Shown: positions 1,194 through 64,000 of the stretch, one piece after another
Layout: every line of letters begins with the position of its first letter
How positions within the stretch are numbered: position 1 is the first letter of the stretch
NCBI GenBank assembly: GCA_964016885.1
Contig: OZ024747.1
Coordinates: 22,258,001-22,322,000, forward strand
Direction: 5' to 3'
Source: Eledone cirrhosa
Lineage: Eukaryota
Length of the DNA stretch: 64,000 bases
Notes under the pieces: generated by a model
Database searches by the model: none
What the model was told of the DNA's origin: nothing
Seen by the model: the letters and a program-made list of their open reading frames with translations, nothing else
Made by a program: the position numbers and the translations under genes

Positions 1194-1360
1194 ATATCTG
1201 ATGTTGTTGTGCCTGGCCAGCCTGAAAACCTTACCGCTAAAGAAGCTCTTCTCCTATGGAGTCGCCGAACAACAGAGGGATACCCTGGTATCAAAGTAAC
1301 AGACTTTTCTACAAGTTGGAGGGATGGCAAAGCCTTTCTTTCCATTATTCACAGACACAG
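1194..1360 (+). CDS. Exon: start of second calponin-homology (CH2) domain
   Basis: tag|[55 protein letters not shown](R)|gtaaga; plectin/MACF CH2 motifs AKEALLLW and SWRDG. Confidence 0.97.
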
Positions 1361-7653: not shown

Positions 7654-7693
7654 CAAATTTCAGCCCCTGATTTTTTATGTTTCTCTTTGACAG

Positions 7694-8060: not shown

Positions 8061-8191
8061 GCTCTTAGCAATGACACATTACCCCTTGGATTAGAAGATG
8101 AACTATACCCCAAAAATGTCGAAAGGCTATTCACTCGCTTTTTATTGGCACAACAAGAAAAGGACATGGCTATCCAATCAGAACTTGTTAG
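8061..8191 (+). CDS. Exon: plakin domain
   Basis: tag|ALSNDTLPLGLEDELYPKNVERLFTRFLLAQQEKDMAIQSELV(R)|gtaaga. Confidence 0.93.
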
Positions 8192-8804
8192 GTAAGATAA
8201 TCATATATATATATATATATTCATTTAGGTTTGGTGGTTCACCACCATTATTTTATGCAATAAACATGATGTCACTAGGATCTTACGGAACTTGGTCACT
8301 GTATAGTGTTTGCTATAATAAATCTTTGAAGAAATTTCACCAGTCCAGCCTCCTGTCATTTTACTCTATAATATATATATATATATATATATATAATTTC
8401 AGTTACTTTTCTATCTTACAAAAACACTCTTAGATAAATAAAACAGAAACTAACTCGTTATCATGCTAATTAATATTTATATGGCAACAGATTATCAATC
8501 TCATCTAAAATGAATCATTAATTCTTGTGAAATGTATATATATTTGGTTAGTTTTATAATAGCTTTGTGAAACAATAATATTAATGTTATTAATTCATTA
8601 CTTCAATTGATGAAATTCCTTTTATTCCATTTCCTGCAAATTTTTCTCATCTTTTTTTCTTATTCCTGTCACTTTTCTCAATCTGTTTGTCAACCTTTTT
8701 TTTTTTTGTTTCATTTACCTTATCTCCCTGGCTAAATATTTTTCTTAAAGACTAGTTTGTATTTTTATTTCTTATTCTTTTCATATGCAAATCTTGTTTT
8801 ACAG

Positions 8805-8898
8805 GTTAGAAAGACTACAACGTCTTGCTGAGAAAATTCACAGAGAAGCCAAAATAAGTGAAGATAGTCTAAATGACATAGAATGGCGAATATTTGGG
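8805..8898 (+). CDS. Exon: plakin domain
   Basis: acag|LERLQRLAEKIHREAKISEDSLNDIEWRIFG|gtatgg; RLERLQRLAEK is typical of plectin/Shot. Confidence 0.93.
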
Positions 8899-9361
8899 GT
8901 ATGGATCTCTTAGTTCCAAAACTTTTATCTAAACAGCTGTTTTGAATTTCCATTATTCTAAGGCAGTATCAACCAATATTGTCAGTAGGTTATTGTAAAT
9001 ATCTCTGTTAAAAACAGTTATTTAACCCTTTTCATCTGAAATCATCTCTAGTTCTTTGATAGGAAAACTACCTGTTTTTAAAGGGTTCATATTTAATATA
9101 AAATCACCTATGATAATTTCATAAAGACTCTGTCCACCCTGTAAGGTGGTCATGTTACTACTATGCAAAAAGCTCTAAGTACACACTGTTCTGAGGTTGA
9201 CCTTAGGAAAAGCATCCAGCCATAGAAAGCCCAGCCCAAAACTGAGCGTATGAGCTAGACATGACCACCCAATCTTTTCTAACAACAAAGATGGACGTTA
9301 AAGTGATGATGCTGAAGAGGATGAAACTAAGAATCTTTTATTTACTTATTCATTTATTTTA

Positions 9362-38951: not shown

Positions 38952-39161
38952 ATTTATGACAAGAAAATGAAGCAGTATACAGAAAGCCTAATTTCACCCC
39001 AAAGCAATGTACACCGAAGTAATAACCAACCAAATGGAGCTGAAACGATCCGAGAAGAACTGGATTTATTGAACTCCACCTACATGAACATGGTTCAGTG
39101 GACTAATAATAGATTAAAAGACATCACTGCAATTTTGTCTGAAGCTAATGTTGATATGAAA
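38952..39161 (+). CDS. Exon: end of plakin domain
   Basis: tag|IYDKKMKQYTESLISPQSNVHRSNNQPNGAETIREELDLLNSTYMNMVQWTNNRLKDITAILSEANVDMK|gtaagc. Confidence 0.93.
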
Positions 39162-43000: not shown

Positions 43001-46000
43001 ATGCTGAATTGTCATTTGTTACTCCCAATGTTGAACGTGAAGGAAATCGAATCATAACCACAAAACAAACCACTATGACTGTCTCCTCTGCTGTGGATCC
43101 TAGAACTGGTAAAAAAATATCGGTAAATGAGGCTATCAGAGAAGGTATATTAAATTATTCTAAAGGTTTATACATAAACCCATCAACAAAAGAAGAAATG
43201 CCTCTTGAAGATGCTATTCTGAAAGGATTAATATTTACTGAAGAAACCAGAGCTCCTGTTAATGACAGATCTGAAATAAGTAGTATTCATATTACTGAAG
43301 ATGAAGAAACCTTTGAAAGTACAATGGTTGAAGATGTAACATCACAAACAGTTACCTTAAGTATCACAAGCGTTGTTGACCCACTCACTATGGAACTTGT
43401 TTCCTATGACAAAGCTGTAGAAAAGGGAGTGCTAAAACTACATGAAGGCCTTTATACAAATCCATCAACTGGTGAGAACATGTCCATTACAACAGCACTT
43501 GAAAAGGGTCTTATTCATGGAGAAGTCACTTCGCAGCAAAAAGAAGAAGATATTTTGAAAAGTTCTATCATGGCTGAGTCCCCTGAATTTCCATTCAATA
43601 AAGTAACATCAGTTATTGATCCTAGAAATGGAGCAGAGATATCTTTGTCAAAAGCTATAAAAGAAAATATAATTGATGTTGATAATGGTATATTCTATGA
43701 TTCAAGATCCCATGAACATCTGAACCTTCATGATGCACTGAATCAAGGCTTTATAAAATTATCGAAAACAACTGATGTCTCACAATTAAACATTACTACA
43801 GATGAGGATCAGGTTGATGAATATTCTGGACAATCAAACACAGAAATCCTTTCTCCAAAGTCTCCAACAAAGGTGGATATGAAATTAGAGAAATCAGAAT
43901 TTACTGCCTCTAGTCCTTTTGAAAATGAGTCAATTGCTACAGAAGCTATTAACATTGAAGTTGATGTAACAAAGAAAACAAAAGACAAGTTTTCAATTTC
44001 ACTTTCAGAAGACGGTCAATTTGAAAAACCTACATCTGGTTTCTCTTATGCTGAAGGAATCAAATTAGGTTTCATTGATCCACAGACTGGTTTAGTAAAT
44101 ATCCCTTCATTGGAAAAACCAATCACCATTTTAGAAGCTATTCATCAGAACATATTAGATCCTAACAAAGCTGCAATCCTTGATATTCAGGGAAATCGCA
44201 CCCTTACACTGCAAGACTGCTTCAAAATGAATAAACTCGATCCTCAAACAGGAAAAGTAAATGATATTGAAACCCTTGAGTATTTACAAGGTCTTTTTAA
44301 TGCTCAAGATACAAAACCTCTGAATCTAATTGATGCTGTTTCTCTTGGAATGTTTAATCCTGAGACTGGGCTGTTTTCTAATAGGTTAGGTCAGACTTTC
44401 ACACTTGAAGAAGCCATCAGAGCTAATGTTATATGCACTGACTTTATTACAGTAAAAAATCTTTCAACTACTGAGAGACTTCCATTTGAATCAGCCTTAA
44501 AACTAGGATTGGTAGATAAATTGACAGCAGAAGTAACTGATACTAAGCGTTTGTGTAAGCTTCCTCTTACAGGTGCTATCGAAAAGAAGATTGTTGAAAG
44601 CATGTATGATCCAGAATCTGGGGGATTATATGATCCCAAAACACAACAAACCATTCCAGTAAAATCAATGATCACAGAAGAACATCCTAGTGGATCAAAG
44701 TTTGAAGTTTATGATAGTGAAAGGGGAGAAACAGTCCCCTTATCTGTCGCACTTCAAAGAAATCTTGTTGACAAACAGACTGGAGAAGTGATTGATTCTT
44801 CAAGCAATAAAAAATTAAGTGCCAAAGAAGCTGTGAAACTTGGTCTGCTAGCAACTATTGGAGCGCCAGTTATTGGAACTGCTCTTGCTGGGAAAACTAT
44901 CTATAATGCAGTTAAGAATAAATTAAATGAAAAGTCTGCTAAAGACACTCAAGATAAGACATCAACTAGAGAACAATCTAGAAATCAATTACCCACTTCA
45001 AGGTCTGATCAACAACAAATTGAAAAGTCAAAAGGAGGACAGACGCCTACTTCAATACTGGATGTACCACAGAGAGGTCAACAAACACCATCGACAGCTG
45101 ATGTACCACAGAGAGGTCAACAAACACCATCGACAGCTGATGTACTACAGAAAGGTCAAGAAACACTATCAAGACCTGATGTACCTCAGAGAGGTCAACA
45201 AACATCATCGACACCTGATGTACCTAAGAGAGGTCAACAAGCACCATTGACACCTGATGTACCTAAGAGAGGTCAACAAGCTCCATCAACACCTGATGAA
45301 CCTCAGAGAGGTCAACAAGCACCATCGACACCTGATGTACCTCAGAGAGGTCAACAAACACCATCAAGACCTGATGTACCCCAGAGAGGTCAACAAACAC
45401 CATCGACACCTGATGTACCTAAGAGAGGTCAACAAGCTCCATCAACACCTGATGTACCTAAGAGAGGCCAACAAACACCATCAACACCTGATGTACCCCA
45501 GAGAGGTCAACAAGCACCATCGACACCTGATGTACCCCAGAGAGGTCAACAAACACCATCAAGACCTGATGTACCCCAGAGAGGTCAACAGACACCATCG
45601 ACACCTGATGTACCTCAGAGAGGTCAACAAGCACCATCAACACCTGATGTACCTCAGAGAGGTCAACAAGCACCATCAACACCTGATGTACCTCAGAGAG
45701 GTCAACAAGCACCATCGACACCTGATGTACCTCAGAGAGGTCAACAAGCACCATCGACATCTGATGTACCTCAGAGAGGTCAACAAGCACCATCGACACC
45801 TGATGTATCTAAGAGAGGTCAACAAGCACCATCAACACCTGATGTACCTCAGAGAGGTCAACAAGCACCATCTGCTGCTGATGTACCCCAGAGAGGTCAA
45901 CAAACACCATTGACACCTGATGTACCCCAGAGCGGTCAACAAGCACCATCGACACCTGATGTACCTAAGAGAGGTCAACAAGCACCATTGACACCTGATG

Positions 46001-49000
46001 TACCCCAGAGAGGTCAACAAGCACCATCGACACCTGATGTACCTCAGAGCGGTCAACAAGCACCATCGACACCTGATGTACCTCAGAGAGGTCAACAAGC
46101 CCCATCGACACCTGATGTACCTCAGAGAGGTCAACAAACACCATCAAGACCTGATGTACCCCAGAGAGGTCAACAAGCACCATCGACACCTGATGTACCC
46201 CAGAGAGGTCAACAAACATCATCAAGACCTGATGTACCTAAGAGAGGTCAACAAGCACCATCGACACCTGATGTACCTAAGAGAGGTCAACAAGCACCAT
46301 CGACACCTGATGTACCTAAGAGAGGTCAACAGACACCATCGACACCTGATGTACTTCAGAGAGGTCAACAAACACCATCGACACCTGATGTACCCCAGAG
46401 AGGTCAACAAACACCATCGACACCTGATGTACCCCAGAGAGGTCAACAAACACCATCGACACCTGATGTATCTAAGAGAGGTCAACAAGCACCATCAACA
46501 CCTGATGTACCTCAGAGAGGTCAACAAGCACCATCTGCTGCTGATGTACCCCAGAGAGGTCAACAAACACCATTGACACCTGATGTACCCCAGAGAGGTC
46601 AACAAACACCATTGACACCTGATGTACCCCAGAGAGGTCTACAAACACCATTGACACCTGATGTACCCCAGAGAGGTCTACAAACACCATCGACACCTGA
46701 TGTACCCCAGAGACGTCAACAAACACCATCAAGACCTGATGTACCTCAGAGAGGTCAACAAGCACCATCTGCAGCTGATGTACCACAGGATAGTAAGTTA
46801 CCTGCCTCTGTAACTGACACATTACAGAAAAGTGAACAACTTTCTTCACCCAAAGTGCCACAAATATTTCAATCACCTTCCACAGACATTGATAATGAAA
46901 TGATGGAAAGAAATAGACAAGTTTCATCGGGTGATTCTTTTGACAAACCATCTACAACAATAATATATGCTAAACCTGATGACCAGATCAAACCAACTCT
47001 GCCTCACCAACATATGACTGAAAGTCAGTCAGTCATTATTAGCAGCACATCAACTATTAGTAGTGAAACAACAAGTATATCATCCCCACTTCCAGCTTCG
47101 ATGAATCAAATACAGCCAGTTGACATGAATTCTGCTCAAGAAATTTCTTATTCAAATGTGATTCCAAAAGATGGCTCAAAAGTTAGCATTGATTGGGAAA
47201 ATGGTTTGGTATTTGATTCTTCGACTGGAACGCAGATGACTGTAACTGAAGCTGTACAGAAAGGCCTGCTCAATAGTGATTTGATAGAAAATCTTGCTGA
47301 GCAGCATACACCACAAATGTCCTTTTCCAAGAGTATCAACATCAATTGGCAGTCTGGTCAAATAACTGACATGAAAACTCAACAACCACTAACAATAACT
47401 GAAGCATTGCATAAAGGGCTCCTTGATACAGTAACTGCAGAAAAGTTAGCTGCAGTTTCTGGAGAAAAACTGCCCACTGACATAATTGCTAGTGCCTTAG
47501 AATCAAAGAAGAGCAAACCAGCTGAACCAGAACTGATAACATCTAGTACTAAGGAATTTCACCAGACAGTTACTGTGAGAGAAAGTTGTACTGTTTCTCA
47601 GCTAGGAACAGATGTCAAACAATCTGCTTCATTCACATCTGGGTTGCCCATGACATTGAATGATGCAGTCCATGGTGGTCATTTCTTAAATGAATTGGGT
47701 AAAATCATCAATCCAATGAATGGTCACCCAATGACTATTAGGGAGGCCGTTGACCATGGAGTGATTGACTGTGATAAGTCTGTCATAATTGATCCCAAAA
47801 GTGGCACTGTTTTATCAGTAAGGTTGGCAATGCATGGAAAGGTTCTTAATCCCGATACTGGTGAACTTATCCATACTGTGACTGGTGAGCGGATACCTTT
47901 GAATGAAGCTCTTCTGGAGGGTTTGATTCCTGATGAAATACTATCTACAGGAATGGACGTAAAAGATTCCCCAGAATCAAGCACAGAACTCTCTACAAAC
48001 TTACCTAATGTTAATATTGATCAAAAGTATACTTTAGATGAAGCTATAAATCTAGGTTTGATTAATGAACAGAATGGAACTTTCACTCACCCAACAACCA
48101 AAGACATAATGACACTTTCTACTGCTGTTCAGTATGGATTTATTGGCTCTGATAAAGACAGTTTAGCAGAACCAAAAGAGCTTCATAAATATCAAAAGGT
48201 AACGAAAGACAGTGTTTCAAATGTATCAATCAAAACATATTCAAATAATACACCAGAAACAACACTTGTCCACCAGCCAATAGCATTGTCAACTGGTGAA
48301 ATCTCCAAAGATCAAAGCTTATCTGATATCACCACTGAAACTGTTGTGAAAAGACAAAAGGGCAGTAAAAACACAGATGAGTTGGCCAAGAGACTTTCTT
48401 TTGCAGAAGCTCTGAACCAAGGTTTTATTGATTTGGCAGAAAATAAATATACAGACCCCAAAACTGGATCACGGATGGCAATCTTAGATGCTATCAGAGA
48501 ACAACTTATTGATCCTAGCGCTGACATTGAAGCATCACCAGAACCTTCCTCCAAAATGAGCCTAATTACAGCAATTGATGCAGGTCTGTTTGATCCTAAT
48601 TCTGGGAAGTTTACTGAATCTATGTCTGGACAAACAATGCCTCTTCAAGAGGCAGTTGATCGTGGTTTCATCAATGACCAGACTGCTATCTATGATTTAA
48701 AAAGTCAGAAAATGTTGACTCTTCAAGATGGTTGGAAAGAAGGGAAGATTGATAAAACTAGTGGTAAATTTATTGATGGAAATAAAACATTTGACTTGAA
48801 GGATGCCGCAAAAATTGGACTTATCGCTGTGGCTGGTATTGCTGGAGCACCAGTTATTGCTGGGAAAATGTTATTTGATTCAGGAAAGAAATTAGTAGAA
48901 AAATCTATCAGCAAAAGAGACACCCCTTCCATTCCAGTTGCAGTTGAAGCAACAAAAGGAAGTATGATCCAACCTAATGTAGTTGAAGTTGTCAAAGTTA

Positions 49001-52000
49001 AACAACTGTCTCCAGTCAATGAAGATGCAATGACATTAATGGAGGCAATATCAAGTGGTTTCTTGAATTCTAGCACAGGAATGTACAAAATACCTTTCTC
49101 AGGAGATTCCATCACACTTCAAGAAGCTATTGACTCTGGTTATATTTTCCCAACATCTGGGTCTATAAATATTGATGGTCATACCTATACATTGCAAGAT
49201 GCATTTAACCAAAATTTGATCGATGCCACTGGACATTTCATTGATCCCAGTAACAAAACTAAAAAGACGTTGCATGATTTAATTAACTGTGGAGATTTAC
49301 AAGAGAAACCAGTAGATAACCGTGTATCAAGTAAAATAACAATCAAAGAGATTGATAAATTGTCTATTGATGAGGTACTAGACCCTTCAACTGGTAAATA
49401 TATTGATCTGAAGACCGCTACTGACAAAGGTATTGTCAATATTGAAAGTGGGAGTTATAACAATCCTGTCACTGGACAAACATTCTCATTGGTCAATGCC
49501 CTTGATTCTGGCTTTGTCCATGGTAACACACTTGACAATCTGATATCAAGAGAAGAGAAAACAAAAGAAGGTTACAAGGCTGCAGTTTCATTCTCTGAAC
49601 AGAAAGACGTACATATATCTTCAGTATTAGATCCAAATACTGGAGAAAAGATGCCTCTTGCAGAAGCAATTAAGAAGGACATATTGAATATACAACAAGA
49701 AACATTCACAAATCAAAAAACAGGTGAACGTATGACATTAGACAAAGCTCTCAGTAAAGGTTACATCTCTACAGAAGAAACTGATGATCAATATCCTAGC
49801 TCTCAACTGAGGGAGGAAAAGAAAGATGTGACTGTCACAAAAAGACACTCTATTACAATAAGTCATGTTACTGACCCTGCTACACAAACAGTTCTTCCAA
49901 TCAGTGATGCTGTAGAGAAAGGTTTGCTTGATGTTTCAGAGGGTGTCCTCTTAAACAAAGCTACTGGTGAGCATATTGCATTATCTGAAGCATTCAAAAA
50001 AGGTTTAGTGAAAGGCTCAGAAGATAGCTCCACTGCTGATTTGACATACCCTGGCTCTGAAAACACATTGAAAATTCAGTCTGTTTATGATCCTCAGCTG
50101 AAAGACTTTTTGTCTATTGATGATGCCAATAAAAAAGACCTTATAAGCTTGGAAAGTGGTACTTACACAGATGAAGATGGAGTGAAAATCTCTCTGTCTG
50201 AAGCTGTCAAGAAGGGCTACTGTAAAAGTGAACAAAATGTCCCCAGTGCTCCACTTCCTATTAAATTCATTGTTGATCCTCAAACTGGGCGTCAACTAAC
50301 TGTAACGGAAGCTATTCAACAAAACATTGTTGATAAAGACTTAGGCCATTATCAAGACAAAACTACTGGAAATATATATCCCATGTCAGAAGCTGTTAAG
50401 AAAGATTTGGTAATAACTGTTCAACCAGCAGGAGATTTTGTGGTTCATTCTAAAAAACAAGAATCTATTCAAATCACAGATGTTGTTGATACACGTACTG
50501 GAAAAACATTACCACTTGACAAAGCTGTGAAAGCTGGTCTGTTTGACCCACAGAAGGGAGAAATGATAGATCAAATTACTGGAGAACATTTGCCAATCCA
50601 ACAAGCAGTGACCAAAGGCTTAGTAAAAGTTACTCCAGCCTCGCCAGATGCTCCAGTTTCACCAGATGTTCCAACTGCAAAATCGTTGAGTTCTTCAGCC
50701 GTTATAAAAGATGTTAAGACTGGCAGAAATCTAACTTCAGAAGAGTCTATAAATGCTGGTATTTTAGATCCCAAGAACAACCTATTCAAGAATACAGCTA
50801 CAGGAGAAATCTTGCACTTATCAGAAGCTATTGAGAAAAACTTAGTTATAGATATGAAGAAACCAAAGAAATGTGACATTCAGAAGGGTACATCTCGTCA
50901 TATAAATGTGACTGCAGTTCTTAACACTAATACTGGAGAAGAACTAACATTAGAGGAAGCAGTTGCACAGAATATTATTGATAGAGATGGGAAAACCTAC
51001 TTAGATACAAATTCTGGATCAGTTCTAAGTATTGAGGAAGCTATGAAAGAAGGTTTTGTTTCTGGTTCTGTACAATCTGTGGTCACCACTAAGACTACTG
51101 TATCATCTCAAAAACCTGGAGTAACATATAATGTTATTGGAGCTGTTGATCCTGAGAAAAAAGCGATGATAAGCATGGCTGATGCCTTTGAAAAAGGAAT
51201 ATTAGATCCTGCTGGAAATTATGTTGACATCAAAACTAATAACACATTATCAATTACAGAAGCAATTCAAAAGGGATTTGTGCAAGCTGAAATTATTGAA
51301 GGTTCTGTTAAAAGAACAAAGCCTGGATTAAAATTAAAAGATGCTCTAATTAAAGGTCTCGTGAATAGGAAAACTGGAAAATATGTTGATCCAGGTTCCA
51401 ATAGTTCCTATTCTGTTGATGAAGCTGTTTTATTAGGAATCTTAGTCAATGATCAAGATGAACCTTTCCATTTCCCTGATAACAGCCGGTCACCAAAAGC
51501 ATGTTCTTTCAAAGAGGCTATAAAAATGGGTCAAATAAATGAAAAAACGGGGTTATTTACACGGCCTGATACCAAAACTGAATGTGATCTTCAGACTGCT
51601 GTTGATGAAGGATATTTATCACCAAAACTACCAAGAGCTAAAAAGTCTCCAGTTGAATCAGTTGTTATGCTTAAAAGCTCTGAACTTCCTTCCAATACAA
51701 AATCTGATTCAAGTATACCATTTAAACAAGCTCTTAATGATGGCCTTTTAGATGTAAACAGCCAACGGTACCAGGATTCTGGAAAAGGTGTAGATATGAC
51801 TATAGAGGATGCTGTGAAATGTGGTATTCTGAGTGATCTTACTACGAGAGACCCTATCACTTTTAATGATGCCGTTAAATCTGGACTGATTGATTCATCA
51901 TCAGGAACCTTCCGAAACCCTGTCACTAACGTTGCTTTGTCATTGGATGAAGCTTTCCAATGTGGATTTTTGGTACCTACTAGGTCTCCATCTTCTGACC

Positions 52001-52521
52001 GCAATGGAAATATTCCTCCCAATGAAGATAAGCCTATTTCTTTGAGCAAAGCTTTACAAGATGGTTATTTAGATAAGACAACAGGAAAATACACCGATCC
52101 TACCAGCCATGTATCTCTTTCACTGGACAAAGCTCTTGAGCTAGGTTATGTTACTGCTAAAAGAGACATTCGTGATGAAGCTAAGCCAAAGGAACCTTTC
52201 CGAAACGATCAATACATGACAGTCACAGAAGGTTCACCTTTTAGTCCTGATCAAAGTACTCATTATTCAAATGGAGAATTAATTTCAAAAAGTGCTACTG
52301 AGATCCAAACTATAGCTACGAGTTCAACCTATATGGCAGCTCCTGGTTTCTATATTGATTCAAGTGGTAATGTCATTAATAATACCACTGGAGATGTAAT
52401 TCCTCTCAAAGAAGCAGTCACCATGGGACTTGTAACATCAGAAGCTGTTGAAGGAAGCAGTTTTCTTCAGGTAATTGGAGAGAAACCACTGCCAACTTTA
52501 GAAGTTGATTCTTCAGAAACA
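40072..52521 (+). CDS. Giant exon (12,450 bp, 4,150 codons): plectin/plakin-repeat array with internal low-complexity repeat
   Basis: Acceptor ttttag|TTT CAA ATG; donor GAA ACA|gtaagt; same frame as the 4182-aa ORF; recurring DPxTGxx[LMI][ST][LIV]xEA[IV]xxG[LI][LI] plectin-repeat motif. Confidence 0.95.
45058..46790 (+). repeat. Coding minisatellite, 39-bp unit (13 aa PSTPDVPQRGQQ[A/T]), ~44 copies
   Basis: Unit cctgatgtacctcagagaggtcaacaagcaccatcgaca repeated in frame within the giant exon. Confidence 0.97.
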
Positions 52522-52611
52522 GTAAGTGTTCCTAATTTTATAATTCAACTTTTTGTGTCAGATTTAACTATGTTTCATTACAATTTGGATATGTTAGTAT
52601 TTAATAATCCA

Positions 52612-52745
52612 TCATTATTATCATGATTATCATCATTACCATTATCATGATTATCATCATCAATATCATTGCCATCATCATTATCATCATCACCACCACC
52701 ATCATCATCATTATCATTACCTTCATCACCACCATCATCATCATG
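52612..52745. repeat. Imperfect (CAT)n/(CAC)n microsatellite
   Basis: catcattatcatcatcaccaccaccatc... Confidence 0.85.
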
Positions 52746-53157
52746 AGCAGATAAGGCATTAATGTTAATGATTCTTCTAGTTAATAAATTGGTTGGATAT
52801 ATAATTTAAATTCTGTCTAATTGATTAAGACACTAGTATTTCAGAATTTGTATCCATCATCAGTAACACTTGCTTGGTACTGAGAAACGTATATACAGTA
52901 TTTAGTTTCATTATTTCTCATGTTTACATTCTGAATTCAATTACCTTTTGAAATCAAATTTACTTTTCATCTCACCAAATGTGGATAAAATAATCAGTAT
53001 ACCGACGCCATTTCAATTGACTATATTCCTCCTTCTCCACCTTCAAAATCTTTTTCGTGAAGAGAAATGATACAAATTTGCATCAATATTTTGCTGTTTA
53101 TTTACATTAATACTTAAATACAATAATAAATATATTTGCCAAAACCAATAGATTTTG

Positions 53158-53189
<32 letters not shown>

Positions 53190-53194
<5 letters not shown>

Positions 53195-53698
53195 TGGGAC
53201 GAGCTGATAAACTCCGACATCACACACTTACACCTCTCCAAGACAATGTCACTGGACCGAGACCTTTGGCGGTACTCAGTAACAGAGAAGACCCGCCTTA
53301 CCTAAATATATAGTAAAACCTACTCCAGCCAGTAGGCATCTCTAACAAATACACCCCGTCCCACCACCCCCACCCGATCCACACCACCCCGTTCTATGTA
53401 AAGTTATGTTGGTGCCGCGCCATCGAGGCCGAAACAAATGAGATCGTGTAGGTGTCACGACAAAAAACACACAGTCCACGCTGTAATGTGGCCGTGTAGG
53501 CAACACGGTAAAAACCTCCCAGACCCACACTGTAAATGTGGTTGGTGTTAGGAAGGGCATCCAACTGTAGAAAACCTGCCAGACAGTCCTATGCGAGCAA
53601 GACAATCACTCTTGCCTCAAGTGGGACTACCCCCGTCCAAACCCATGCAAGCGTGGAACACGGACGTTAAACGCTGATGATGATGATGATGATGATGA
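53190..53698 (+). mobile_element. Retroposon family 2 with (gat)n tail
   Basis: Similar to 24650-25055; follows a (TA)n run. Confidence 0.75.
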
Positions 53699-53712
53699 TA
53701 TATATATATATA

Positions 53713-54171
<459 letters not shown>

Positions 54172-54382
54172 CTTTTCCTAGGTCCTGTATTTTCGTTGCT
54201 CTAGTGATGTGGCTGGACTGTCGACCGCTATATCTGATTTGCTAAGCTGTCTGAACGTAATGTTATTACTCTGGGGTCTTTCCTCATCTGAGTGCTCAAG
54301 CTACAGACCGATTATACATATACGTTAGCTTGGCCGTATTCTAAAGCTTCGTCAATGCTGTACTAAAATTTATATATATATA

Positions 54383-54507
54383 TAATTGTTTCTACTTTTG
54401 GCACAAGGCCAGCAATTACCCAGAGCATTACTGGTACTTTATTTTATCGACCCCGTAAGGATGAAAGGCAAAGTTAACCTCGGCGAGAATTAAACTCAGA
54501 CCATAAA
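54383..54507 (-). mobile_element. SINE family 1, 5'-truncated
   Basis: Near-identical to the 2607 copy. Confidence 0.8.
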
Positions 54508-55021
54508 ATGATATGAAACGAAAGGAGCTGTGTGGTTACTAAAAACAAGGTTTAGGATGGTGGATACGGCAGAAGAAAGGAGTTTCCTTCGTCAAACGAA
54601 AGACTTTATATCCTCTCTATTTATTTCGTTATATATATTTCGAAGATGTAAAGTTTTCTGTATAACAGAAAGCAAAGCATGTCCTCCTCAGATAAAATAC
54701 ATAGAAAATGTATAATTTTCATATGTTGGTAGACAAACGAGCTGGACAGATCTCTCTCTCTATATAAAGACACACACACACACTCACACTCACACTCACA
54801 CACACACACACACACTCACACACACACACACACACATATATAAGGTGGCTTGCTGACATATTGTTCATAAAAGTGTACATAGAATTTTGGTCATGATGAT
54901 GATATGAACTCTGATCAATGCAATTTGATATCTTGATTCAATTTAATATCACGTGATACATAATTTCAGGCATTCATGGTGTAAGTTCATTTCAATGGAG
55001 TTTCTTTGGCTGGTTTCACAA

Positions 55022-55381
55022 GTGGTGTCCAGCCACAAGTATATGCACTTTAAGAGAGTGGTGTCCAGCCACAAGTATATGCACTTTAAGAGAGTGGTGC
55101 CCAGCCACAAGTATATGCACTTTAAGAGAGTGGTGCCCAGCCACAAGTATATGCACTTTAAGAGAGTGGTGCCCAGCCACAAGTATATGCACTTTAAGAG
55201 AGTGGTGCCCAGCCACAAGTATATGCACTTTAAGAGAGTGGTGCCCAGCCACAAGTATATGCACTTTAAGAGAGTGTAGCCCAGCCACAAGTATATGCAC
55301 TTTAAGAGAGTGGTGCCCAGCCACAAGTATATGCACTTTAAGAGAGTGGTGCCCAGCCACAAGTATATGCACTTTAAGAGT
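55022..55381. repeat. 36-bp minisatellite, 10 near-identical copies
   Basis: gtggtgcccagccacaagtatatgcactttaagaga, head-to-tail with no spacers. Confidence 0.95.
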
Positions 55382-55598
55382 GTGCAATCCAAGCACTGCA
55401 TTGGTTATAGTGCCGAGTTCTCGCTTTCACACCCAACCCAATTAGGTGGAACCAGTGCTACATGGGAGTGAGTTTTCCCAGCAGAGGTGATAAACACAAC
55501 CTATTTGGGCCATTTTCTAGGCCATCAGGTGCTCACCCCACCGCCCAGCTCAGACATACCGACCCTCGACACCATTTGTATGTGTTGATATATATATA

Positions 55599-55664
<66 letters not shown>

Positions 55665-55717
55665 TATGTATATATATATATGTATATACATATACGGTTA
55701 ACCCCAATAGCCTTGTG

Positions 55718-55749
<32 letters not shown>

Positions 55750-56916
55750 CATCCTTATCACTGCACCCCCACCCCATCCATTCCCCCTCCTGTATCACTC
55801 CTTAGCTAACCCCCTCGCTATCACACCCTAGCACCGCCTCCACTACTACTCCTTAGTTCTGTTCTTAACAACACTCCCCCTCTTGCTGACACTGGTGAGT
55901 GTGCACCCCCACCCCTGTACTATTGGCCACACCATCCACATCCCCTACTACTATCTCCATTTAGGTATTCACACCACCACTATATCCCCCTCCCCCCCCC
56001 CCATTCCTCTACTCATCACCTGTCAAATCACACCACACTCGCCGTACATCCATAATTTCATATCTATGTCCCTTTTCATCTCACCTTCCAACCCCTATAG
56101 AACAGAAAGGCCAACAACCTCTCTAGTGTTGGTACCACAAAAATGCACTGGGTACACCCTATAAGTTGGTTGGTGATAGAAAACACTGAACAGGGTTGAG
56201 AAGACCCTTTTGTTGTGTCAATGTCACTATAAACACTTTCAGTACAACAAAGGTTGGTGATAGGAAGGACATTCAGCCATAGAAAGCTTGCCAAACAGGC
56301 TTGGAAGGACCCTGTGGTTAGAAAAAGCTATCTCACTTACCGCTTTTCATAGGCGCCGCTAAATTCCACTGCTGGTCTCTCCTCTCCCACGTGCGTCCAA
56401 CTGCTTAACACTGGGAGCTGCCAAAACTCACGTCCACACCGTTGCTGGTCACCACTAGAGGCCATCTGCTGGCCCTTCCGGTCGAGCATCCGTCCGGCCA
56501 AGCACCCTTCCGGTCGAGCACTCCCCCGCTTCCGGCCACCGCACGCCACACCATACCCACAGACCCTGCAGTTGTGTCAAAGACATGACAACTTCTCTAG
56601 TGCTGATGCCACAATAAAATGCTACTCAGTAGTAGATGGAACTATATGTAAGTGTGATGTAGACTGCCAGCCTGTCTGAGAGGCTTGTATTCTGCTTCAG
56701 TACTGACTACCTGTCCAACTCTTGCCAGCAGGAAAAGTGGATGTTAAATGATGATGATGATTTCTATATACGTATGTTCATGTATATATTTATATTATAC
56801 ATCATATCTGTATATCATCATCATCATCATCATCATATATATAATGTATGTATTCAGGACCGCTCCGGCTGAGCTCCGGCTGTTTCAACAGCTAGATCCA
56901 AACTGTATATATATAA

Positions 56917-56952
<36 letters not shown>

Positions 56953-57254
56953 GGTGGCTGCCAACTCGTTTTCGAGTACGGCCACTACTTCATATCCATG
57001 TAGGAGAACCCCTACCGATCCGCTGAACGAGTGTGACTTTTTAGTCCAGCCAGCGACTTGAAAACTCTAGTACAAAGACTACACTTGTGACAATTATTGA
57101 CACATAGTGTTGGGCCCATGGTACCATGTGACGACAAGTGCAGAGAGATCTCCAGATATAAAGCAATGCCTGTGCCGTGAAGCTTTTATAGTGAGCAAAG
57201 GCACTGCACAAAGCCAGTCCCACTCTCTTAACCAAGATGATATTTACCAAAAAG

Positions 57255-57551
57255 AACAAGTCAACATCATTGGATACCATCAGGGTTGCAGGTGTTATAT
57301 CAGAGTTTTCCTTCTAGAATTCTGCCTTGACAAAGGCTAAGGGGTCATCTCTCCCGGTGATTTTGGATGGCCATTGACTCTTAAGAGCTCCTTTGCCCTT
57401 TGACAGGTTTTTATTTTACTCCTGCAGGATGTCCAAAGTCACCCTCCTCACCAAGAAACCTTGGTGGGGTTGCCAGTTTAGTCGCCAACGACCCGACCAT
57501 GAGACAGGTTGTACTGGGATACATGTTACCAGTAGCACCAACTGGTGACCT

Positions 57552-57555
<4 letters not shown>
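57255..57555. mobile_element. Probable LINE/SINE UTR fragment
   Basis: GC-richer block (gttttccttctagaattctgccttgacaaaggctaagggg...) bounded by (TA)n; resembles RTE-type retroposon UTRs; family not established. Confidence 0.4.
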
Positions 57556-57607
<52 letters not shown>

Positions 57608-57734
57608 GCATCCCGATGTAAATCGGGAGGTGATCACTGTCAAAAAAGTATTCAATATGTTAGTATAGTATACAGATATTCATTTTATTATAGAAATGAT
57701 TTCTACAGATCCAGAACTGTTTCAAATTACATAT

Positions 57735-58123
57735 CCCTCTCCCTCTCCCTCTCTCTCCCTCTCTCCCTCTCCCTCTCTCCCTCTCCCTCTCTCCCTCTCC
57801 CTCTCCCCCTCTCTCCCTCTCCCTCTCCCCCTCTCCCTCTCCCTCTCTCCCTCTCCCTCTCTCCCTCTCCCTCTATCCCTCTCTCTCTCTCCCTCTCTCT
57901 CTCCCTCTCTCTCTCTCCCTCTCTCTCTCTCCCTCTCTTCCTTTTCTCCCTCTCTTTCTCTCTCCCCTCTCCCTCTCCCTCCCTCTCTCTCCCTCTCCCT
58001 CTCCCTCTCTCTCCCTCTCTCTCCCTCTCCCTCTCTCTCCCTCTCCCTCTCTCTCCCTCTCCCTCTCTCTCCCTCTCTCTCCCTCTCCCTTTCTCTCCCT
58101 CTCTCTTTCTCTCCCTCTCTCTT

Positions 58124-58155
<32 letters not shown>

Positions 58156-58295
58156 CCTCTCTCCATCTCCCTCCCTCTCCCTCTCCCTCTCTCTCCCTCT
58201 CCCTCTCTCTCTCTCTCTCCCTCTCTCCCTTTTCTCTCTCTCTCCCTCTCTCTTTCTCTCTCCCCTCTCCCTCTCTCTCCCCCCCTCTCTCTCTC

Positions 58296-58394
<99 letters not shown>
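57735..58394. repeat. ~660-bp polypyrimidine (CT/CCCTCT)n tract
   Basis: Almost purely C/T on the + strand. Confidence 0.96.
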
Positions 58395-58574
58395 TATCGA
58401 TTTTAGTCTTTGGATTTTAGTCTTCAAATTTATTATTATTACTATATATATATTGTTATACTTGGGGAGGGTCATATTTGTGTAATATTGCCAGAATTAA
58501 TAACAGAACACACTCACTGTTTGGTTGGTTTTCGCTTCTCGCTGTCTTTTATATCACATATCGCAAAACTAAAA

Positions 58575-59870
58575 CTATATATATATATATATATATATAA
58601 TAGAGGATGACTGTCTGTCTGTGTAAATCCCTAAAACTCGAGAAGTACCTATCCCAATTTTTTCTAACTTTGCACATGCGTTACTTATATTTCTTGAAGT
58701 GTAATGGGCTAAAAAAAATTCAATTTTTTCTGCCCTAGGGCCTGCATTAGGCGAAAAACTGCATTTTTTAGGCATTTTTAGGCTTTTTTGAGGCGTAACC
58801 TAAAGATAATCCAGCCGATTTCCTCGAAATTTGCAGCTCACATTAGTTAGTCCCCTTGCATTGCTGTGGACATTCCGTTAATGGGTTCTAGGAAATTACG
58901 AATTAGCATTGGGCATTACATGCCATTTCCATTCTCAATAACGCTACGTAAGTAGCGTAATGTCGTAAAAAATTTGGTGTATTTAACAGAGGGCACAACA
59001 CTTACAGTTAAGCAGAACCATTTTTGGGGGATTGAGGAAATGAGGACAATTGGGCATTACATGCCATTTCCATTCTCAATAACGCTACGTAAGTAGCGTA
59101 ATGTCGTAAAAAATTTGGTGTATTTAACAGAGGGCACAACACTTACAGTTAAGCAGAACCATTTTTGGGGGATTGAGGAAATGAGGACAACCTTAAAATT
59201 TTTGTCGGCGCCCTGTTGACGCTTAGTGCTTTCATCACGCGCAAATCCGAGCCCTCTGTATGTTGCCGTGTTATTGACACCGTAAAACTCACGTCTGTGC
59301 TACTTCTACTAAGACCCCTTTTGTTGCACCTACACCGCAGTATGAACACCCTGGGCAAGTACGCCGAACAGCGGTTGTGCTAATTCCGCAACGACCCCTT
59401 TTGTCGCACCTTTGTTGCTGTGTAAATGCAGTGCAACCAGTGCCGCCCAGTGTTTGTGCTAATTGCACTATGACGCCCTTCTGCTGCAGCTGCGTTGCCA
59501 CGCTAATTTCGTCATCTCAATATCCCTACTTAAACGTACATCCCTACTTGGTTTTCACATAATTGACTATGTCGCTCCTTCAGACTGACGCGTGTTGCCC
59601 ATCCGTTACGTAATTCGTGAACAGACTTGCGACATACATCACCCCACAACACATACTTACTCCTTTCGCATACAGGATTTCCGCAATCAGCCCACTGACA
59701 CTGCTACTACTGGATTCGGACTGCTGGTGTTCTATGTTTCCAGTAGATGAACAATCATTCCCTGAGAATAAGGGAATTCAAAAAGTACACTGCTACATTT
59801 CTCAATCTTTGCATATGCCTGTTGCTATTTCACGTTTCCTACCCCGTGCAATGCCGGATTCTGCTGCTAG
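58575..59870 (+). mobile_element. Non-autonomous Helitron-like element
   Basis: 5' C(TA)n...tgtctgtctgt start; ccgatttcctcgaaatttg subterminal motif; 3' GC-rich hairpin-like ccgtgcaatgccgg followed 10 nt later by CTAG|T; no TSD seen. Confidence 0.75.
58908..59189. repeat. 141-bp tandem duplication inside the Helitron
   Basis: attgggcattacatgcc...gaaatgaggaca starts at 58908 and again at 59049. Confidence 0.93.
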
Positions 59871-59871
59871 T

Positions 59872-60195
59872 ATCATCATCATCATCATCATTTCATTTTA
59901 CGTCCGCTTTTCCCTGCTTGCAAGGGTGGGACGGGAACTGATTTTGGCTTGATTTCTACAGCTGGATGCCCTTCCTAACACCAACCTCATTTACAGTGAG
60001 TGCTGGGTGCTTTTTTGTCGTGGCACCTCCACGACCACTTTGCAGTGGAATGATTTGGACCCCAGTCCCTATCATCTCATTTCTACAGCTGAGTAAACTG
60101 GAGCAATGTGAAATAAAGTGTCTTGCTCAAGGAAACAACACATCACCCGGTGTGAGAATTGAACTCACAACCTTTCGACTGAGCCATGTGCCTCC
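59872..60195 (-). mobile_element. tRNA-headed SINE family 2 with deletion in the tRNA head
   Basis: Near-identical to 53713-54037. Confidence 0.85.
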
Positions 60196-60206
60196 ATCAT
60201 AGTATG

Positions 60207-60274
<68 letters not shown>

Positions 60275-60462
60275 TGTGTGTGTGTAAGTATGTATGCATA
60301 TGTGTGTGTGTGTGTTTCATTACATTGAATTATATACATTCTAAAGATATGTTTATTTAAAGAATACATGGACCGTGTATAATAGCTTATAATGAAATTT
60401 ATTGGAAAAATTGAAATTTGTAATCATTGGCTTAGTCTATTTTAATTAAGTATTTTCTATTC

Positions 60463-60540
60463 ATCATCCTTACAGAGTCGATAAAATAAAGTACCAGTAA
60501 TGCACTGGGTAATTGCTGGCCAAAAGTAGAAACAATTATT
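60463..60540 (+). mobile_element. SINE family 1, 3' fragment
   Basis: catccttacagagtcgataaaataaagtaccagtaatgcactgggtaattgctggcc...gtagaaacaattatt. Confidence 0.75.
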
Positions 60541-62351
60541 GATATTCTACTGAGTAGAAACTTTTTTCTGATTTGACAACTGAAGATCATTCAGCTGCTG
60601 CTGTATTTATTTTCAAATGAATGTCATATATCCTGACCAAACTCTCTTCAAAGTATTAGTTCTAGGACTTTGTCACAGCAGCCAGAAGTTAACAATTACT
60701 ACTATTAATATTTGGTTTGATAGTTAATTCTCTCCTATCACTTTTGTTGCTTTTTTTTTTTTAATGAGTTTTGCTAATTTTTTTTTTTTGTGTGGTGGGA
60801 GGCCTTATTCTTTCTTTTTCAGTTTTGAAGTATTTTTATTACATCTCTACTCTGTTTTGAGAAGCTTCGTCAGATAATTTCATAGGATAATGGCAACAAA
60901 GTCTTGTTAGTTTTGTTTTTATAGCAGCTTTTCTAAGCTGGATGTATCACTATTAAGAAATATCTGTATTTGAATTTGTTTAGAAAACAAACAAAAATAT
61001 TTATTACTCCAGTTAAAATTATGGCATGGCATGTTTTGACCTGGTGTTGTTCTGAGATAAAACAGCCTTATGAGGTATGTAACTGCTTAGTTCACTGTTG
61101 GAATTTCAGTTTAAGACATCACTACTTTTCTCATGATCAGTTTTACTTCAGAAGTCATTTTATTATATTTTATTGGAGATTTAAAATAGTGATTTTTATA
61201 TTGTTCTTTGTTCATTGAAAGTATATTTCAACTGTTAGAAAAACATTCTATATTTAGCACAATCTCTTAGTTTTTCAGACATCACTCTTCAAATTTTACT
61301 CACATTTGCTATATCTTCCGCACTGGGATTTTGATATTATAAATAAATGGTTCTTGTACTTGGGCTATATTTGCATTTTCTTGAACCAGTAAACTCTAGT
61401 GTCATTGTTTGGTGGATTGGCAGTATTGGTAGAGCATCTGACAAAACATATTTAAAATATTGTTGGTATATTAATAGTGAAAGGTCTATAAGCTGTCTTT
61501 TTCAGTACTACTTGAAATGGTTCTGAAACCTTCAAGAAGCAGATATATACTTAAAAATAACCTAATCTGTATTTCATGTAAAATTGTGTGATGTTGTTTA
61601 GCAACAGATCAACTCTGTTTAAGCAGATCTATAATCAGTTATTCCAGCCATGAGTATGTAGTCCTATTTAGGACTACATAATCCAATGTAATTTTTCTTT
61701 ATTTAAAATGGTAGGGTAAGGGAAATTTGACTGATATTTCTAGCAGATCTAGCAACCTTATAGAGGCTGTCTAGTTGGTTTGTGGTATCTGGTTGTTTTG
61801 GCTTTGTTTTATTTTCCCCTTTAGCAAATTAGAAGCTGAAATAAATAATATCTGAAATATAAAACTATTTAATGTTTAATAATACACATAAAAAAGGGTT
61901 CTTTCTACTACAAGAAGTTCTTTTAAACATTTGGTAGTAGTATATCTTTTTACAAGTAATGTATTCTAGATATTTCCAAATATTCAGTAAAGTAATGTTT
62001 GAGTACTGGGGATGATTTAGTTGGTTAACCCATCCTTTACATCTGAGTGTTTGTACTTATGATACAAATTAGTATTATGTAAATTTCACTTATGATGTTT
62101 GAAGTTTTATGATGTTTGAAATCTTAAAATAGCCCAAACGTTTTCCATACTTAATTTTATTTTAACAATTTAATCAAAGGATTTTATTATCTTCTTTTAT
62201 GTATATTTATAAAGGTGGAAAGGTTATGTCTCATTAAGGTGACATCTCATTTTAAAGTTGTATGGAGGACTCCAGTTGATATAATTTATTGGTGGAGGGG
62301 GTAATATTTCATTTCATTAACATTCTAAAAAGTCTGTGACTAGTGATTACC

Positions 62352-62585
62352 TCATTTCATGTACTTTAACAGATGTGTAGGGGACTTCATTCCATGTTCT
62401 TTAACAGATGTGTAGGGGACTCCATCTCACATACTTTACAATTGTGTAGGGGGAATTCATTTCATTTACTTTACAATTGTGTATGGGGAATTCATTTCAT
62501 TTACTTTTACAGATTTGTAGAGGACTTTATTTCACATACTTTACAGATGTGTGTGGGGGAGGGGCTTCATTTCATGTTCATTAAC
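62352..62585. repeat. Degenerate ~35-bp minisatellite, ~6 copies
   Basis: catttcat(g/t)tacttta(a)ca(g/a)(a/t)tgtgtaggggac variants. Confidence 0.8.
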
Positions 62586-62832
62586 TCTGTGTTTTTCTTC
62601 CATGCTATGAACTTGTAATTAAAATGCTTTTCCTTTTGTAGAGAAACATATTCATTTTTTTTTCCTGACCAAATATAGGCTTTTCATCATAAAACACTGT
62701 TCTGATACTATATTTAAAACACAAGATTAATTTGTACATATTTGTCTATATTTCATATTCTGTTTGTTTTTAGAATTTAGAGTAGGCATGGAATTAATGA
62801 CACTTTGTTGAGATATAGATTCTAAATTTCAG

Positions 62833-64000
62833 GGTAAGAATATGCCTCCCAAAACAAAAGATCCAGGTCTTTGTGAGAAATCTTCAACAGTTGTGACAAA
62901 AGAACAAAATTTGACAGGTTTTGACCATTCCATTCCAAATGGGTTTCATAGTTCAAATTCATCCAATACAGATAGCACTGAGGACCTTGAGGAGCATCCA
63001 TATAGTTTTTCCCAATCAAATCTGAATGAACAAATTATTACACCTCCTTCTACTCTATCTGATATCCATCAGTATGTGTCTGATCTTGACTGCTATTGCA
63101 GAAACTTTATTAAAGGATTTTGGGATCCTCTTAGTTGTAAATTTGCTCATCCTTCTAATATGAAATTGCTCAACCTTCGTGAAAGTTTAGAATCTGGTTT
63201 ACTCTATGGACCTAGTGTGAAGCTTTATCTGAGTCCCTCATCATCCATTAGTTTAGAGCAAGCTTTTCTATCAGGACAGGTTCACATTGATAATGGAAAC
63301 TTAACCGTTAGCAACAGTACTTTGCAATATTCTCTGACATCAGCATTCGAAGAAAAAATGATTTATTTGGAACACCCTGAAATAAAGGAATCAGAATTTT
63401 TACAGTTTCGTAGTAAAATTGGTCCTGCTTTATTTGACCTTATCAAGGCAGGATCTGTTACTGCAGCAACCAGACTATTAGATGTAGAAAAACAAGAATT
63501 TATTAATTTAGCCACTGGTAGTGAGAGAAATCTGTTTAATATTCAGAATGGGCAGATTCAGAACTCTTCATCAAAAAGATGGCTAAGCTGGAATGCAGCG
63601 TTGCATAAAGGCTTTATAGTTGACAAAATTGAAGCTTCTATTGCTGATCTGGTAAATGATGGAAATGTCGATAGTTCAAATGATTTGTTTAAAGAAACTA
63701 CCACAGGAAAATGGTTTACATTGGATGAGATGATCAGTTTTCAATATTTGAATTTATATTCTAAAGAAGTTGTCAATACAAAATCCAAACAAATTCTTCC
63801 AATAAAAGAAGCTTTCTGTGAAAATATTCTTCATTCAAATACTGGTGGATGTTTTTATCTTGATCTGGATAAGAATAGACAACTAACTATCACAGAAGCT
63901 GTAAACAAAGGATTTTTGATTTCACATAAACATAAACTTTTACTTCAAGAAGAAACTGAAAGCAATTCATCTAATCTAATTTTGAATTCCAATATTACAG
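62833..64000 (+). CDS. Second large exon with divergent plakin-like repeats, truncated by the window end
   Basis: Frame +1 open from after TGA 62809-62811 to 64000 (~389 codons). Candidate phase-0 acceptor tttcag|GGT AAG AAT ATG. Motifs GFWDPLSCKFAHPSNMKLLNLRESLESGLL, FKETTTGKWFTLDEMI, DLDKNRQLTITEAVNKGFL. Exact start uncertain. Confidence 0.82.

What the first reader, a model, noticed from the sequence alone, without database searches (positions are those of the whole stretch)
62833..64000. Hidden second large plakin-repeat exon, missed by the ORF track
Seen: frame +1 has no stop from 62812 to the window end. It translates to degenerate plectin-repeat units (WDPLSCKFAHPSNMKLLNLRESLESGLL; QIQNSSSKRWLSWNAALHKGFI; FKETTTGKWFTLDEMI; VVNTKSKQILPIKEAFCENIL; DKNRQLTITEAVNKGFL). 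Its phase-0 acceptor fits both the giant exon donor (52521) and the 39161 donor. Established: Drosophila Shot, MACF1b and BPAG1b carry their internal plakin repeats in one large optional exon. Inference: this gene may have two or more large, separately spliceable plakin-repeat cassettes, used additively or mutually exclusively. The second is much more diverged (Trp/Cys/Phe substitutions, often lacking DPxTG), which suggests a different binding function.
Basis: partly seen in the sequence, partly recalled or inferred. Interest (0 to 1): 0.75.

Follow-up and report, generated by a model that had tools for sequence, protein, structure and literature searches.

The report
Second giant exon in mollusc spectraplakin
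This mollusc's gene for a giant cytoskeleton-linking protein (Shot/MACF1 type) has a real second giant exon of 7.6 kb that is spliced on after the first, is likely often skipped, and is kept as a separate exon in bivalves, which likely lets cells add or drop a binding-and-spacer module that insects likely carry inside one exon.

Summary
The frame open at 62812 runs 2,546 codons in the genome. Exon B is 62833-70422 (7,590 nt, phase 0/0) and scores Pfam Plectin at E 2.9e-39. It lies in a spectraplakin gene (CH, plakin region, spectrin, EF-hand, GAS2). A spliced run of the same organism holds the junctions A(52521)>B(62833) and B>C(75048). Its contig breakpoints fit only an isoform set that also has A>C, so B is most likely an optional add-on after exon A. 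Mutual exclusion is refuted as the only mode, and 39161>62833 was not seen. B is not degenerate: 30 other molluscan-type sequences keep it (51-61% identity in its best block, Trp motifs invariant), with B as a separate phase-0 exon in a bivalve-like locus. Insect single plakin-repeat exons end in B-type repeats, and four unnamed ORFs carry A then B without a break. So A+B likely equals the one exon known from flies, split by an intron. The predicted fold is hairpin plus one helix, a poor match to canonical plakin repeat domains. No paper found describes this. Verdict: a new variant of known spectraplakin splicing; binding partner unknown.

The parts
38952..39161 (+). Exon U, last exon before the plakin-repeat region; 210 nt, phase-0 donor
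   Evidence: Sequence; matches Mytilus DST residues 1265-1338 at 41.8%
40072..52521 (+). Exon A, first giant plakin-repeat exon; 12,450 nt, 4,150 codons, phase 0/0
   Evidence: (Plectin E 1.5e-190); its last 27 nt are the loose end joined to exon B in run X6
52522..62832 (+). Intron A-B, 10,311 nt, GT..AG, rich in simple repeats; I saw no coding-like frame among open stretches of 45 codons or more
62808..62832 (+). Acceptor of exon B, ending TTTCAG; a TTTCAG acceptor also precedes B in bivalve-like locus L044
   Evidence: junction
62833..64000 (+). 5' part (389 codons) of exon B: about 80 low-complexity residues, then hairpin-helix repeat units. The exon continues past the window: whole exon G000:C7:22320833-22328422 (extended 62833-70422), 7,590 nt, 2,530 codons, with repeat core about 80-1300, S/T/N-rich linker about 1300-1950, second repeat block about 1990-2310 and phase-0 donor AAG|GTATGG. 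It is followed by exon C, first exon of the spectrin rod, at G000:C7:22333048-22333194 (extended 75048-75194).
   Evidence: (pLDDT 87.3, pTM 0.78 for residues 81-370)
63121..63153 (+). W-D..H-P motif (B residues 97-107), invariant in the 23 aligned sequences
   Evidence: W17 D18 H26 P27 of alignment A3
63580..63591 (+). WLSW motif (B residues 250-253); the second W is invariant in the 23 aligned sequences
1194..1358 (+). Calponin-homology coding stretch of the same gene
   Evidence: Pfam CH E 1.9e-9; tblastn

Best explanation
Exon B is a real, spliced 2,530-codon second plakin-repeat exon of the mollusc spectraplakin that is joined after exon A and is likely an optional add-on cassette, likely the last part of the single plakin-repeat exon known from insects, and predicted to add a separate protein-binding scaffold plus spacer. 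Shown: exon limits, phases, the A>B and B>C junctions, conservation. Inferred from contig breakpoints: A>C skipping, giving nested isoforms with A alone or A+B. The form without either (U>C) is expected by analogy to fly Shot but was not shown. Inferred from sequence: an intron at the A/B border splits what arthropods and some unnamed animals encode in one frame. Predicted: B folds into chains of about 25-residue hairpin-helix units grouped in about 100-residue modules rather than canonical 4.5-repeat domains. Inferred by analogy: A carries junction or cortex targeting, like the fly N-terminal segment; B lengthens the actin-to-microtubule linker by 2,530 residues and docks its own partner through its conserved blocks (about 500-600 and 2135-2310).
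For: Junction A>B: 27 loose letters before B equal the end of A; B>C loose ends in X6 and X2. X6 covers only 833-8423 of L004:500-9000 (apart from a repeat in the last bin) and splices C>D at GT..AG, while DNA run X3 covers the introns. X6 breakpoints A-27, C+30 and C+1 are all predicted only by the 2 of 6 simulated isoform sets that include A>C. Depth arithmetic implies a second contig of depth about 19 entering C beside the B>C contig of 8.4. X1's main contig (depth 28.7) runs 137 letters upstream of C, and no X1 piece of that depth lay on B. Orthologues: 69% and 50% close relatives, Dreissena model with A-like, B-like and spectrin parts in order; 148 columns at 90% conservation among 31 sequences. 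L044 has B as a phase-0/0 exon, then a 4.5-kb intron and exon C. Six A-type/B-type ORF pairs share the same longest-contig length. In 14 of 14 arthropod-type proteins B profiles win at least 2 of the last 4 windows, 47 of 56 in all. Four unnamed ORFs align to A then B in order. In the fly, the N segment of the exon targets junctions and the C segment does not (PMC2173965).
Against: No A>C or U>C junction letters were displayed; skipping is deduced from breakpoints and from two studies only, with no tissue labels and no library record (X1 and X2 are guessed RNA of a relative; X6 has no recorded type). Contig depth is a poor expression measure. Insect last-third windows mostly match one B profile (B601) rather than B in order, and A holds modules of the same type, so the likeness may be one of repeat class. 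In Drosophila kikkawai only 2 of the last 4 repeat windows favour B, one of them marginally (59/62). The taxa of the unbroken A+B ORFs are unknown, so intron gain versus loss is not settled. No binding partner was tested.
Confidence: 0.6

Rival explanations
1. Same splicing, but B is only a length-tuning spacer without a partner of its own.
For: The 650-residue S/T/N-rich linker is absent or unalignable in most relatives, and B ranges from 1,705 to 3,749 aa among orthologous ORFs. The fly C segment was diffuse in the cytoplasm (PMC2173965).
Against: Blocks at 501-600 and 2101-2300 keep 41-59 identical residues per 100 in the eight most distant relatives aligned and in Dreissena; 74 of the 148 near-invariant columns lie in three 100-residue windows. 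That is uneven for a mere spacer, though it could be structural.
Confidence: 0.17
2. A and B are always used together; the intron is a neutral split and the skip signals are assembly artefacts.
For: Only A>B and B>C junction letters were displayed; contigs also break at errors and heterozygous sites.
Against: Three breakpoints in X6 and two in X2 fall on the exact bases predicted for skipping, while the constitutive set predicts no break and unspliced RNA predicts A-29, C+28 and -2. X1's main contig enters C from non-B sequence.
Confidence: 0.08
3. B arose as a mollusc-specific duplication of part of A and then diverged; the insect likeness is convergence of repeat class.
For: A and B align at about 22% in many registers; insect windows match B601 repeatedly rather than in order.
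Against: No single A segment stands out as B's source (best 124 bits). P0217, P0011, P0004 and P0230 carry A-like then B-like sequence in order in one frame.
Confidence: 0.1
4. A and B are mutually exclusive alternatives, or B serves as a terminal exon giving a VAB-10A/BPAG1e-like plakin.
For: All four splice sites are phase 0. The frame runs 9 codons past B's donor to a stop, and an 'LEW' read-through is shared with two relatives.
Against: A>B is seen. A U>B path would break the contig at A-1, and it starts at A-27. X6 and X2 show no cover in the bin past the donor, and their B>C contigs are unbroken there. Rare or tissue-limited forms are not excluded.
Confidence: 0.05

Closest known systems
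Drosophila Shot plakin repeat region (exon 12 of shot-RH, 10,497 nt; PMC2173965, 10.1101/122010, PMC9320987)
   Same: [quoted passage not shown]
   Different: One large exon in the fly; here two giant phase-0/0 exons (12.4 and 7.6 kb) 10.3 kb apart, with the second likely skipped on its own. Together they encode 6,680 aa against about 3,500.
Mammalian dystonin/BPAG1 (BPAG1e terminal PRR and BPAG1b internal PRR) and MACF1b
   Same: One gene with two separately encoded plakin-repeat regions (dystonin); an internal optional region (MACF1b, BPAG1b) (10.1101/122010, PMC3352950, passages).
   Different: Dystonin's second region is C-terminal in short isoforms; here both are internal and additive. 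Vertebrate regions form 4.5-repeat PRDs, which the B models match poorly (TM about 0.1).
C. elegans VAB-10A
   Same: Invertebrate plakin-repeat exon of a spectraplakin locus, not thought to form canonical PRDs (10.1101/122010, passage).
   Different: Terminal exon in the worm; VAB-10A windows all favour A profiles, none B (P0211).
Desmoplakin/envoplakin/plectin plakin repeat domains (PDB 5dzz, 1lm7, 1lm5, 4qmd, 2n03)
   Same: The five best Foldseek hits of the B 440-950 model (best E 1.5e-4) and the four best profile hits in PDB.
   Different: Query TM-scores 0.08-0.13, rmsd 13-24 A; best VIA Z 2.7 (rmsd 2.9, 48 aligned). The models show one short helix per unit.

Membership tests
Spectraplakin (Shot/MACF1/dystonin) | N-terminal calponin-homology actin-binding domain | tested here: met
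   Pfam CH E 1.9e-9 at window 1194-1358; further N-terminal hits up to 100 kb upstream
Spectraplakin (Shot/MACF1/dystonin) | Plakin domain before the repeat region | tested here: met
   Ordered tblastn hits of the insect and Mytilus N-terminal parts at 4904-39161, 32-86% identity; SH3 not scanned on its own
Spectraplakin (Shot/MACF1/dystonin) | Spectrin rod, EF-hand and GAS2-related domain after the repeat region | tested here: met
   Spectrin E 3.7e-18, GAS2 E 4.1e-21; EF-hand E 3.4e-5, just under its cut-off on a single exon piece
Internal plakin repeat region of spectraplakins | Plectin repeats between plakin domain and spectrin rod | tested here: met
   PF00681 E 2.9e-39 for B, E 1.5e-190 for A; position
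Internal plakin repeat region of spectraplakins | Encoded by one large exon (fly) | tested here: not met
   Two exons with a 10,311-nt intron, spliced A>B
Internal plakin repeat region of spectraplakins | Whole region can be spliced out (U>C) | tested here: inconclusive
   Breakpoints fit sets with or without U>C; the letters upstream of C in X1 were not displayed
Canonical plakin repeat domain (4.5 x 38-aa repeats, hairpin plus two helices) | Second helix and globular 4.5-repeat fold | tested here: inconclusive
   Both models show hairpin plus one short helix per about 25 residues; PRDs rank first but align poorly. These are predictions, and the models span several modules.
Canonical plakin repeat domain (4.5 x 38-aa repeats, hairpin plus two helices) | Binds intermediate filaments | not testable with these tools
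   No binding assay or complex prediction run
Mutually exclusive exon pair | The two exons never join each other | tested here: not met
   A>B junction in X6
Cassette exon | Symmetric phase and both inclusion and skipping forms | tested here: met
   Phase 0/0 and inclusion junctions shown; skipping deduced from breakpoints in X6 and X2 and from X1's contig, junction letters not displayed

The most novel reading that the evidence does not exclude
Molluscs have cut the spectraplakin plakin-repeat region at a functional border into two switchable halves. Exon B is a separately regulated binding module, conserved across distant molluscs, with a repeat fold unlike solved plakin repeat domains, and it corresponds to the non-junction-targeting part of fly Shot. 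One gene would then make linkers in three steps, up to roughly 11,500-12,000 residues, larger than the 8,846-residue fly giant.
Probability: 0.35. Interest if true: 0.65.

Novelty: new variant of a known kind. Interest (0 to 1): 0.45.

Why it matters
The internal plakin-repeat region of spectraplakins is called functionally unexplored (PMC9320987, passages), and a fly deletion of its exon disturbed splicing of the whole gene. A lineage that splices the region in two pieces offers a natural dissection. It marks a likely functional border, points to two short invariant blocks as candidate binding surfaces, and gives confident structure models for repeats with no close solved match. It also shows how a 7.6-kb exon can be dropped from gene models: none of the named mollusc models found here carries A and B whole, though the searches were limited by length.

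Tried and rejected
No run on record as RNA was listed; this is not evidence on expression. X1, X2 and X6 were judged spliced RNA from their C>D joint and the lack of cover flanking exon B. The second read-laying included an intronic repeat that filled the loose-end table, so the letters entering exon C were not displayed, and both calls are spent. The wide VIA-align search gave best Z 2.3 and no useful match; Foldseek on the in-window model had no hit at E<=0.001; neither shows a new fold. The metagenome scan gave 1 confirmed locus of 101 pattern matches, with only 105 bases upstream of B, so the A-B intron was not read in a second species. The search among longer proteins was capped at 5,000 aa and found 5 proteins, none closer than 23%, so full-length cephalopod models could not appear. 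Cluster look-ups named 1 of the first 20 clusters, as 'hypothetical protein'. The [KQ]V motif near the end of 32 of 32 B-type ORFs (27 as R[KQ]V) fits a shared phase-0 donor but is low in specificity; only L044 was read as DNA. Paper searches found nothing on mollusc spectraplakin exon structure; most subscription journals are not covered, and no supplements were seen (isoform figures S1/S2 of 10.1101/122010 may bear on this). Earlier scan notes: nothing relevant. A second genomic copy of B was not found (lower bounds). The GTAAG just inside B's acceptor was considered as a recursive site and set aside, because it lies one base off and the RNA reads through it.

Full report
Observation. Frame +1 is open from 62812 to the window end, 396 codons, and holds the quoted peptides. 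About 3e-9 such frames are expected by chance at this composition. The window is G000:C7:22258001-22322000, and in the genome the frame stays open for 2,546 codons. I use window coordinates extended past 64000. Exon U is 38952-39161, exon A 40072-52521 (4,150 codons), exon B 62833-70422 (2,530 codons) and exon C 75048-75194; every junction among them is phase 0. The in-window part of B scores Pfam Plectin below the cut-off (14.4 bits), but the whole exon scores 133 bits, E 2.9e-39.

The gene. Ordered tblastn hits and Pfam scans give calponin homology, plakin region, A, B, spectrin rod, EF-hand and GAS2 from about 100 kb upstream to extended position 128,600. It is a spectraplakin of the Shot/MACF1/dystonin kind. 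Its nearest named relatives are bivalve proteins (Dreissena, Mytilus).

Transcription and splicing. No run on record as RNA was listed, so four coded runs were laid. X6, the same organism as DNA run X3, covers only exon B within L004:500-9000, apart from a repeat in the last bin. Its contig entering B begins with the last 27 bases of exon A, and its contig leaving B continues into exon C. X2, a relative, shows the same B>C end. X1, X2 and X6 splice C to the next exon (GT..AG in X6), and X3 reads through the introns. So A>B>C exists, which refutes mutual exclusion as the only mode.

Skipping. In X6 the A>B contig starts at A-27, the B>C contig ends at C+30, and the long downstream contig starts at C+1. 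I simulated six isoform sets as 31-letter graphs; the word length is taken from the tool's description and my knowledge of these assemblies. Only the two sets holding A>C give all three breakpoints. The constitutive set gives none, U>C alone gives no break at A-27, U>B gives A-1, and unspliced RNA gives A-29, C+28 and -2. X2 shows the C+30 and C+1 breaks. In X6 the depth over the first 30 bases of C implies a further contig of depth about 19 beside the B>C contig of 8.4; this is crude and is no expression measure. In X1 the main contig (depth 28.7) runs 137 letters upstream of C, while no X1 piece of that depth lay on B. The skip junction's letters were not displayed, so skipping is deduced, from two studies without tissue labels. 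Whether A is skipped too (U>C) is open.

Conservation. Two close relatives align over the whole exon at 69% and over its first half at 50%. A Dreissena model has A-like, then B-like, then spectrin sequence. In all, 30 other B-type sequences were aligned with B, giving 148 columns conserved in 90% or more, mostly at 401-900 and 2001-2300. Identity in the 2110-2320 block is 51-61% for the distant ones. The linker at about 1300-1950 is not conserved. In locus L044, whose spectrin exons match Dreissena at 54-85%, B has a TTTCAG acceptor and a CAG|GTACGG donor, both phase 0, then a 4.5-kb intron and an exon matching C. Eight A-type ORFs start at A's start and hold no B (five checked window by window, all eight aligned). 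Six A-type/B-type ORF pairs share the same longest-contig length (P0063/P0193, P0067/P0201, P0152/P0197, P0150/P0198, P0153/P0199, P0077/P0238), which I read as the same contigs carrying two separate frames. These sequences are unnamed; calling some of them gastropods would be a guess.

Origin. Profiles of A and B windows were scored on other animals. In 14 of 14 arthropod-type proteins (four named insects, ten unnamed and grouped by pattern) the early windows mostly favour A, a middle window favours A2701, and 47 of the 56 last-four windows favour B. Four unnamed single ORFs (P0217, P0011, P0004, P0230) align to A and then to B in order, at 20-26% identity. The simplest reading is that A+B equals the single exon known from flies and that an intron divides it here. 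Against this, the insect windows mostly match one B profile rather than B in order, A holds modules of the same type, and Drosophila kikkawai favours B in only 2 of its last 4 repeat windows. More distant A-only ORFs (about 24% identity) hint that the split may be older than molluscs. Gain versus loss of the intron is not settled.

Structure. AlphaFold2 models of B 440-950 (pLDDT 88.1, pTM 0.82, 14 sequences) and of the in-window part B 81-370 (87.3, 0.78, 23 sequences) show repeated hairpin plus single short helix units of about 25 residues. Foldseek ranks five plakin repeat domains first for the larger model, best E 1.5e-4, but with TM-scores near 0.1. For the smaller model two rank first, none at E<=0.001, and the best VIA Z is 2.7. 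B is therefore plakin-repeat-related but is predicted not to pack as canonical domains, as was argued for fly Shot from its poorly kept second helix (PMC2173965).

How it likely works. Shown: B can be added after A. Deduced: it can be left out. Inferred: the cell thereby chooses between a linker with A and one with A+B, which adds 2,530 residues, made of two repeat scaffolds around a 650-residue low-complexity spacer. In the fly, exon nucleotides 1,400-4,100 target GFP to junctions and 6,000-9,000 do not (PMC2173965); the latter span is where other insects turn B-like. By analogy A would carry junction targeting and B a different role. I put 0.6 on B being an add-on module with its own partner, 0.17 on a pure spacer, and less on the other rivals. 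The longest form would be roughly 11,500-12,000 residues. This is an estimate from 1,338 residues up to U in Mytilus, A, B and downstream contigs of 10-12 kb that may include UTR.

Comparison with print. Fly Shot has one 10,497-nt exon, partial use of its 5' start, and a short second exon with 2 repeats. Dystonin has two repeat regions on different exons, one of them terminal; MACF1b has one internal region; VAB-10A has a terminal one. What I saw: PMC2173965 parts 1-2 of 7 plus passages; passages only of 10.1101/122010, PMC9320987, PMC3352950 and PMC9145010 (notes plectin repeats in mollusc spectraplakins, no exon analysis); no supplements. Seven searches found no description of two internal giant exons in molluscs; subscription journals are largely not covered.

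Verdict. Real and well supported. Modular splicing of plakin repeats is known, so this is a new variant of a known kind: two internal, additive giant exons kept across distant molluscs. It is of moderate interest, mainly because it makes the open question of what the internal repeat region does more testable. Interest 0.45.

Noticed in passing
window about 45070-46800 (exon A residues about 1667-2240): Exon A holds an insert of about 43 copies of a 13-residue Gln/Pro-rich unit; the eight A-type relatives align only about 60 or fewer of 200 residues at 1801-2200, so it is a lineage-specific expansion inside the exon.
   Followed up: partly
G000:C20:35758244-35758714, minus strand: A 680-codon open frame with plectin-like repeats on another contig. 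It may belong to a second mollusc spectraplakin-like gene of the kind named in Littorina, Batillaria, Gigantopelta and Solemya (P0213-P0216: short N-terminus, SH3, about 700 aa of repeats, then spectrin rod, with GAS2 in three of the four).
   Followed up: no
window about 46954 (exon A residue 2295): The Dreissena model P0013 leaves exon A just after a conserved TTII[YF]AKP motif and continues in B, omitting A's second half. It may be an internal donor, as in fly Shot, or a model or assembly error; I saw no clear donor in the 180 bases after the motif here.
   Followed up: partly
L004:8423-8452 (extended 70423-70452): Nine codons of read-through after B's donor end in a stop; a relative only 50% identical keeps an 'LEW' there. 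No cover in X1, X2 or X6 in the bin beyond. It could be a rare terminal form or an intronic splicing element.
   Followed up: partly
window 62830-62839: The acceptor of B reads CAG G GTAAGA, so a donor-like GTAAG sits one base inside the exon; the RNA reads through it.
   Followed up: partly
L004:2030-2110 (exon B residues about 400-425): Arg-Arg-X-Ser stretches (RRASL, RRESL) lie between the first two repeat blocks and recur in relatives such as P0010, P0013 and P0014; they resemble basophilic kinase sites (recalled consensus, not tested).
   Followed up: no
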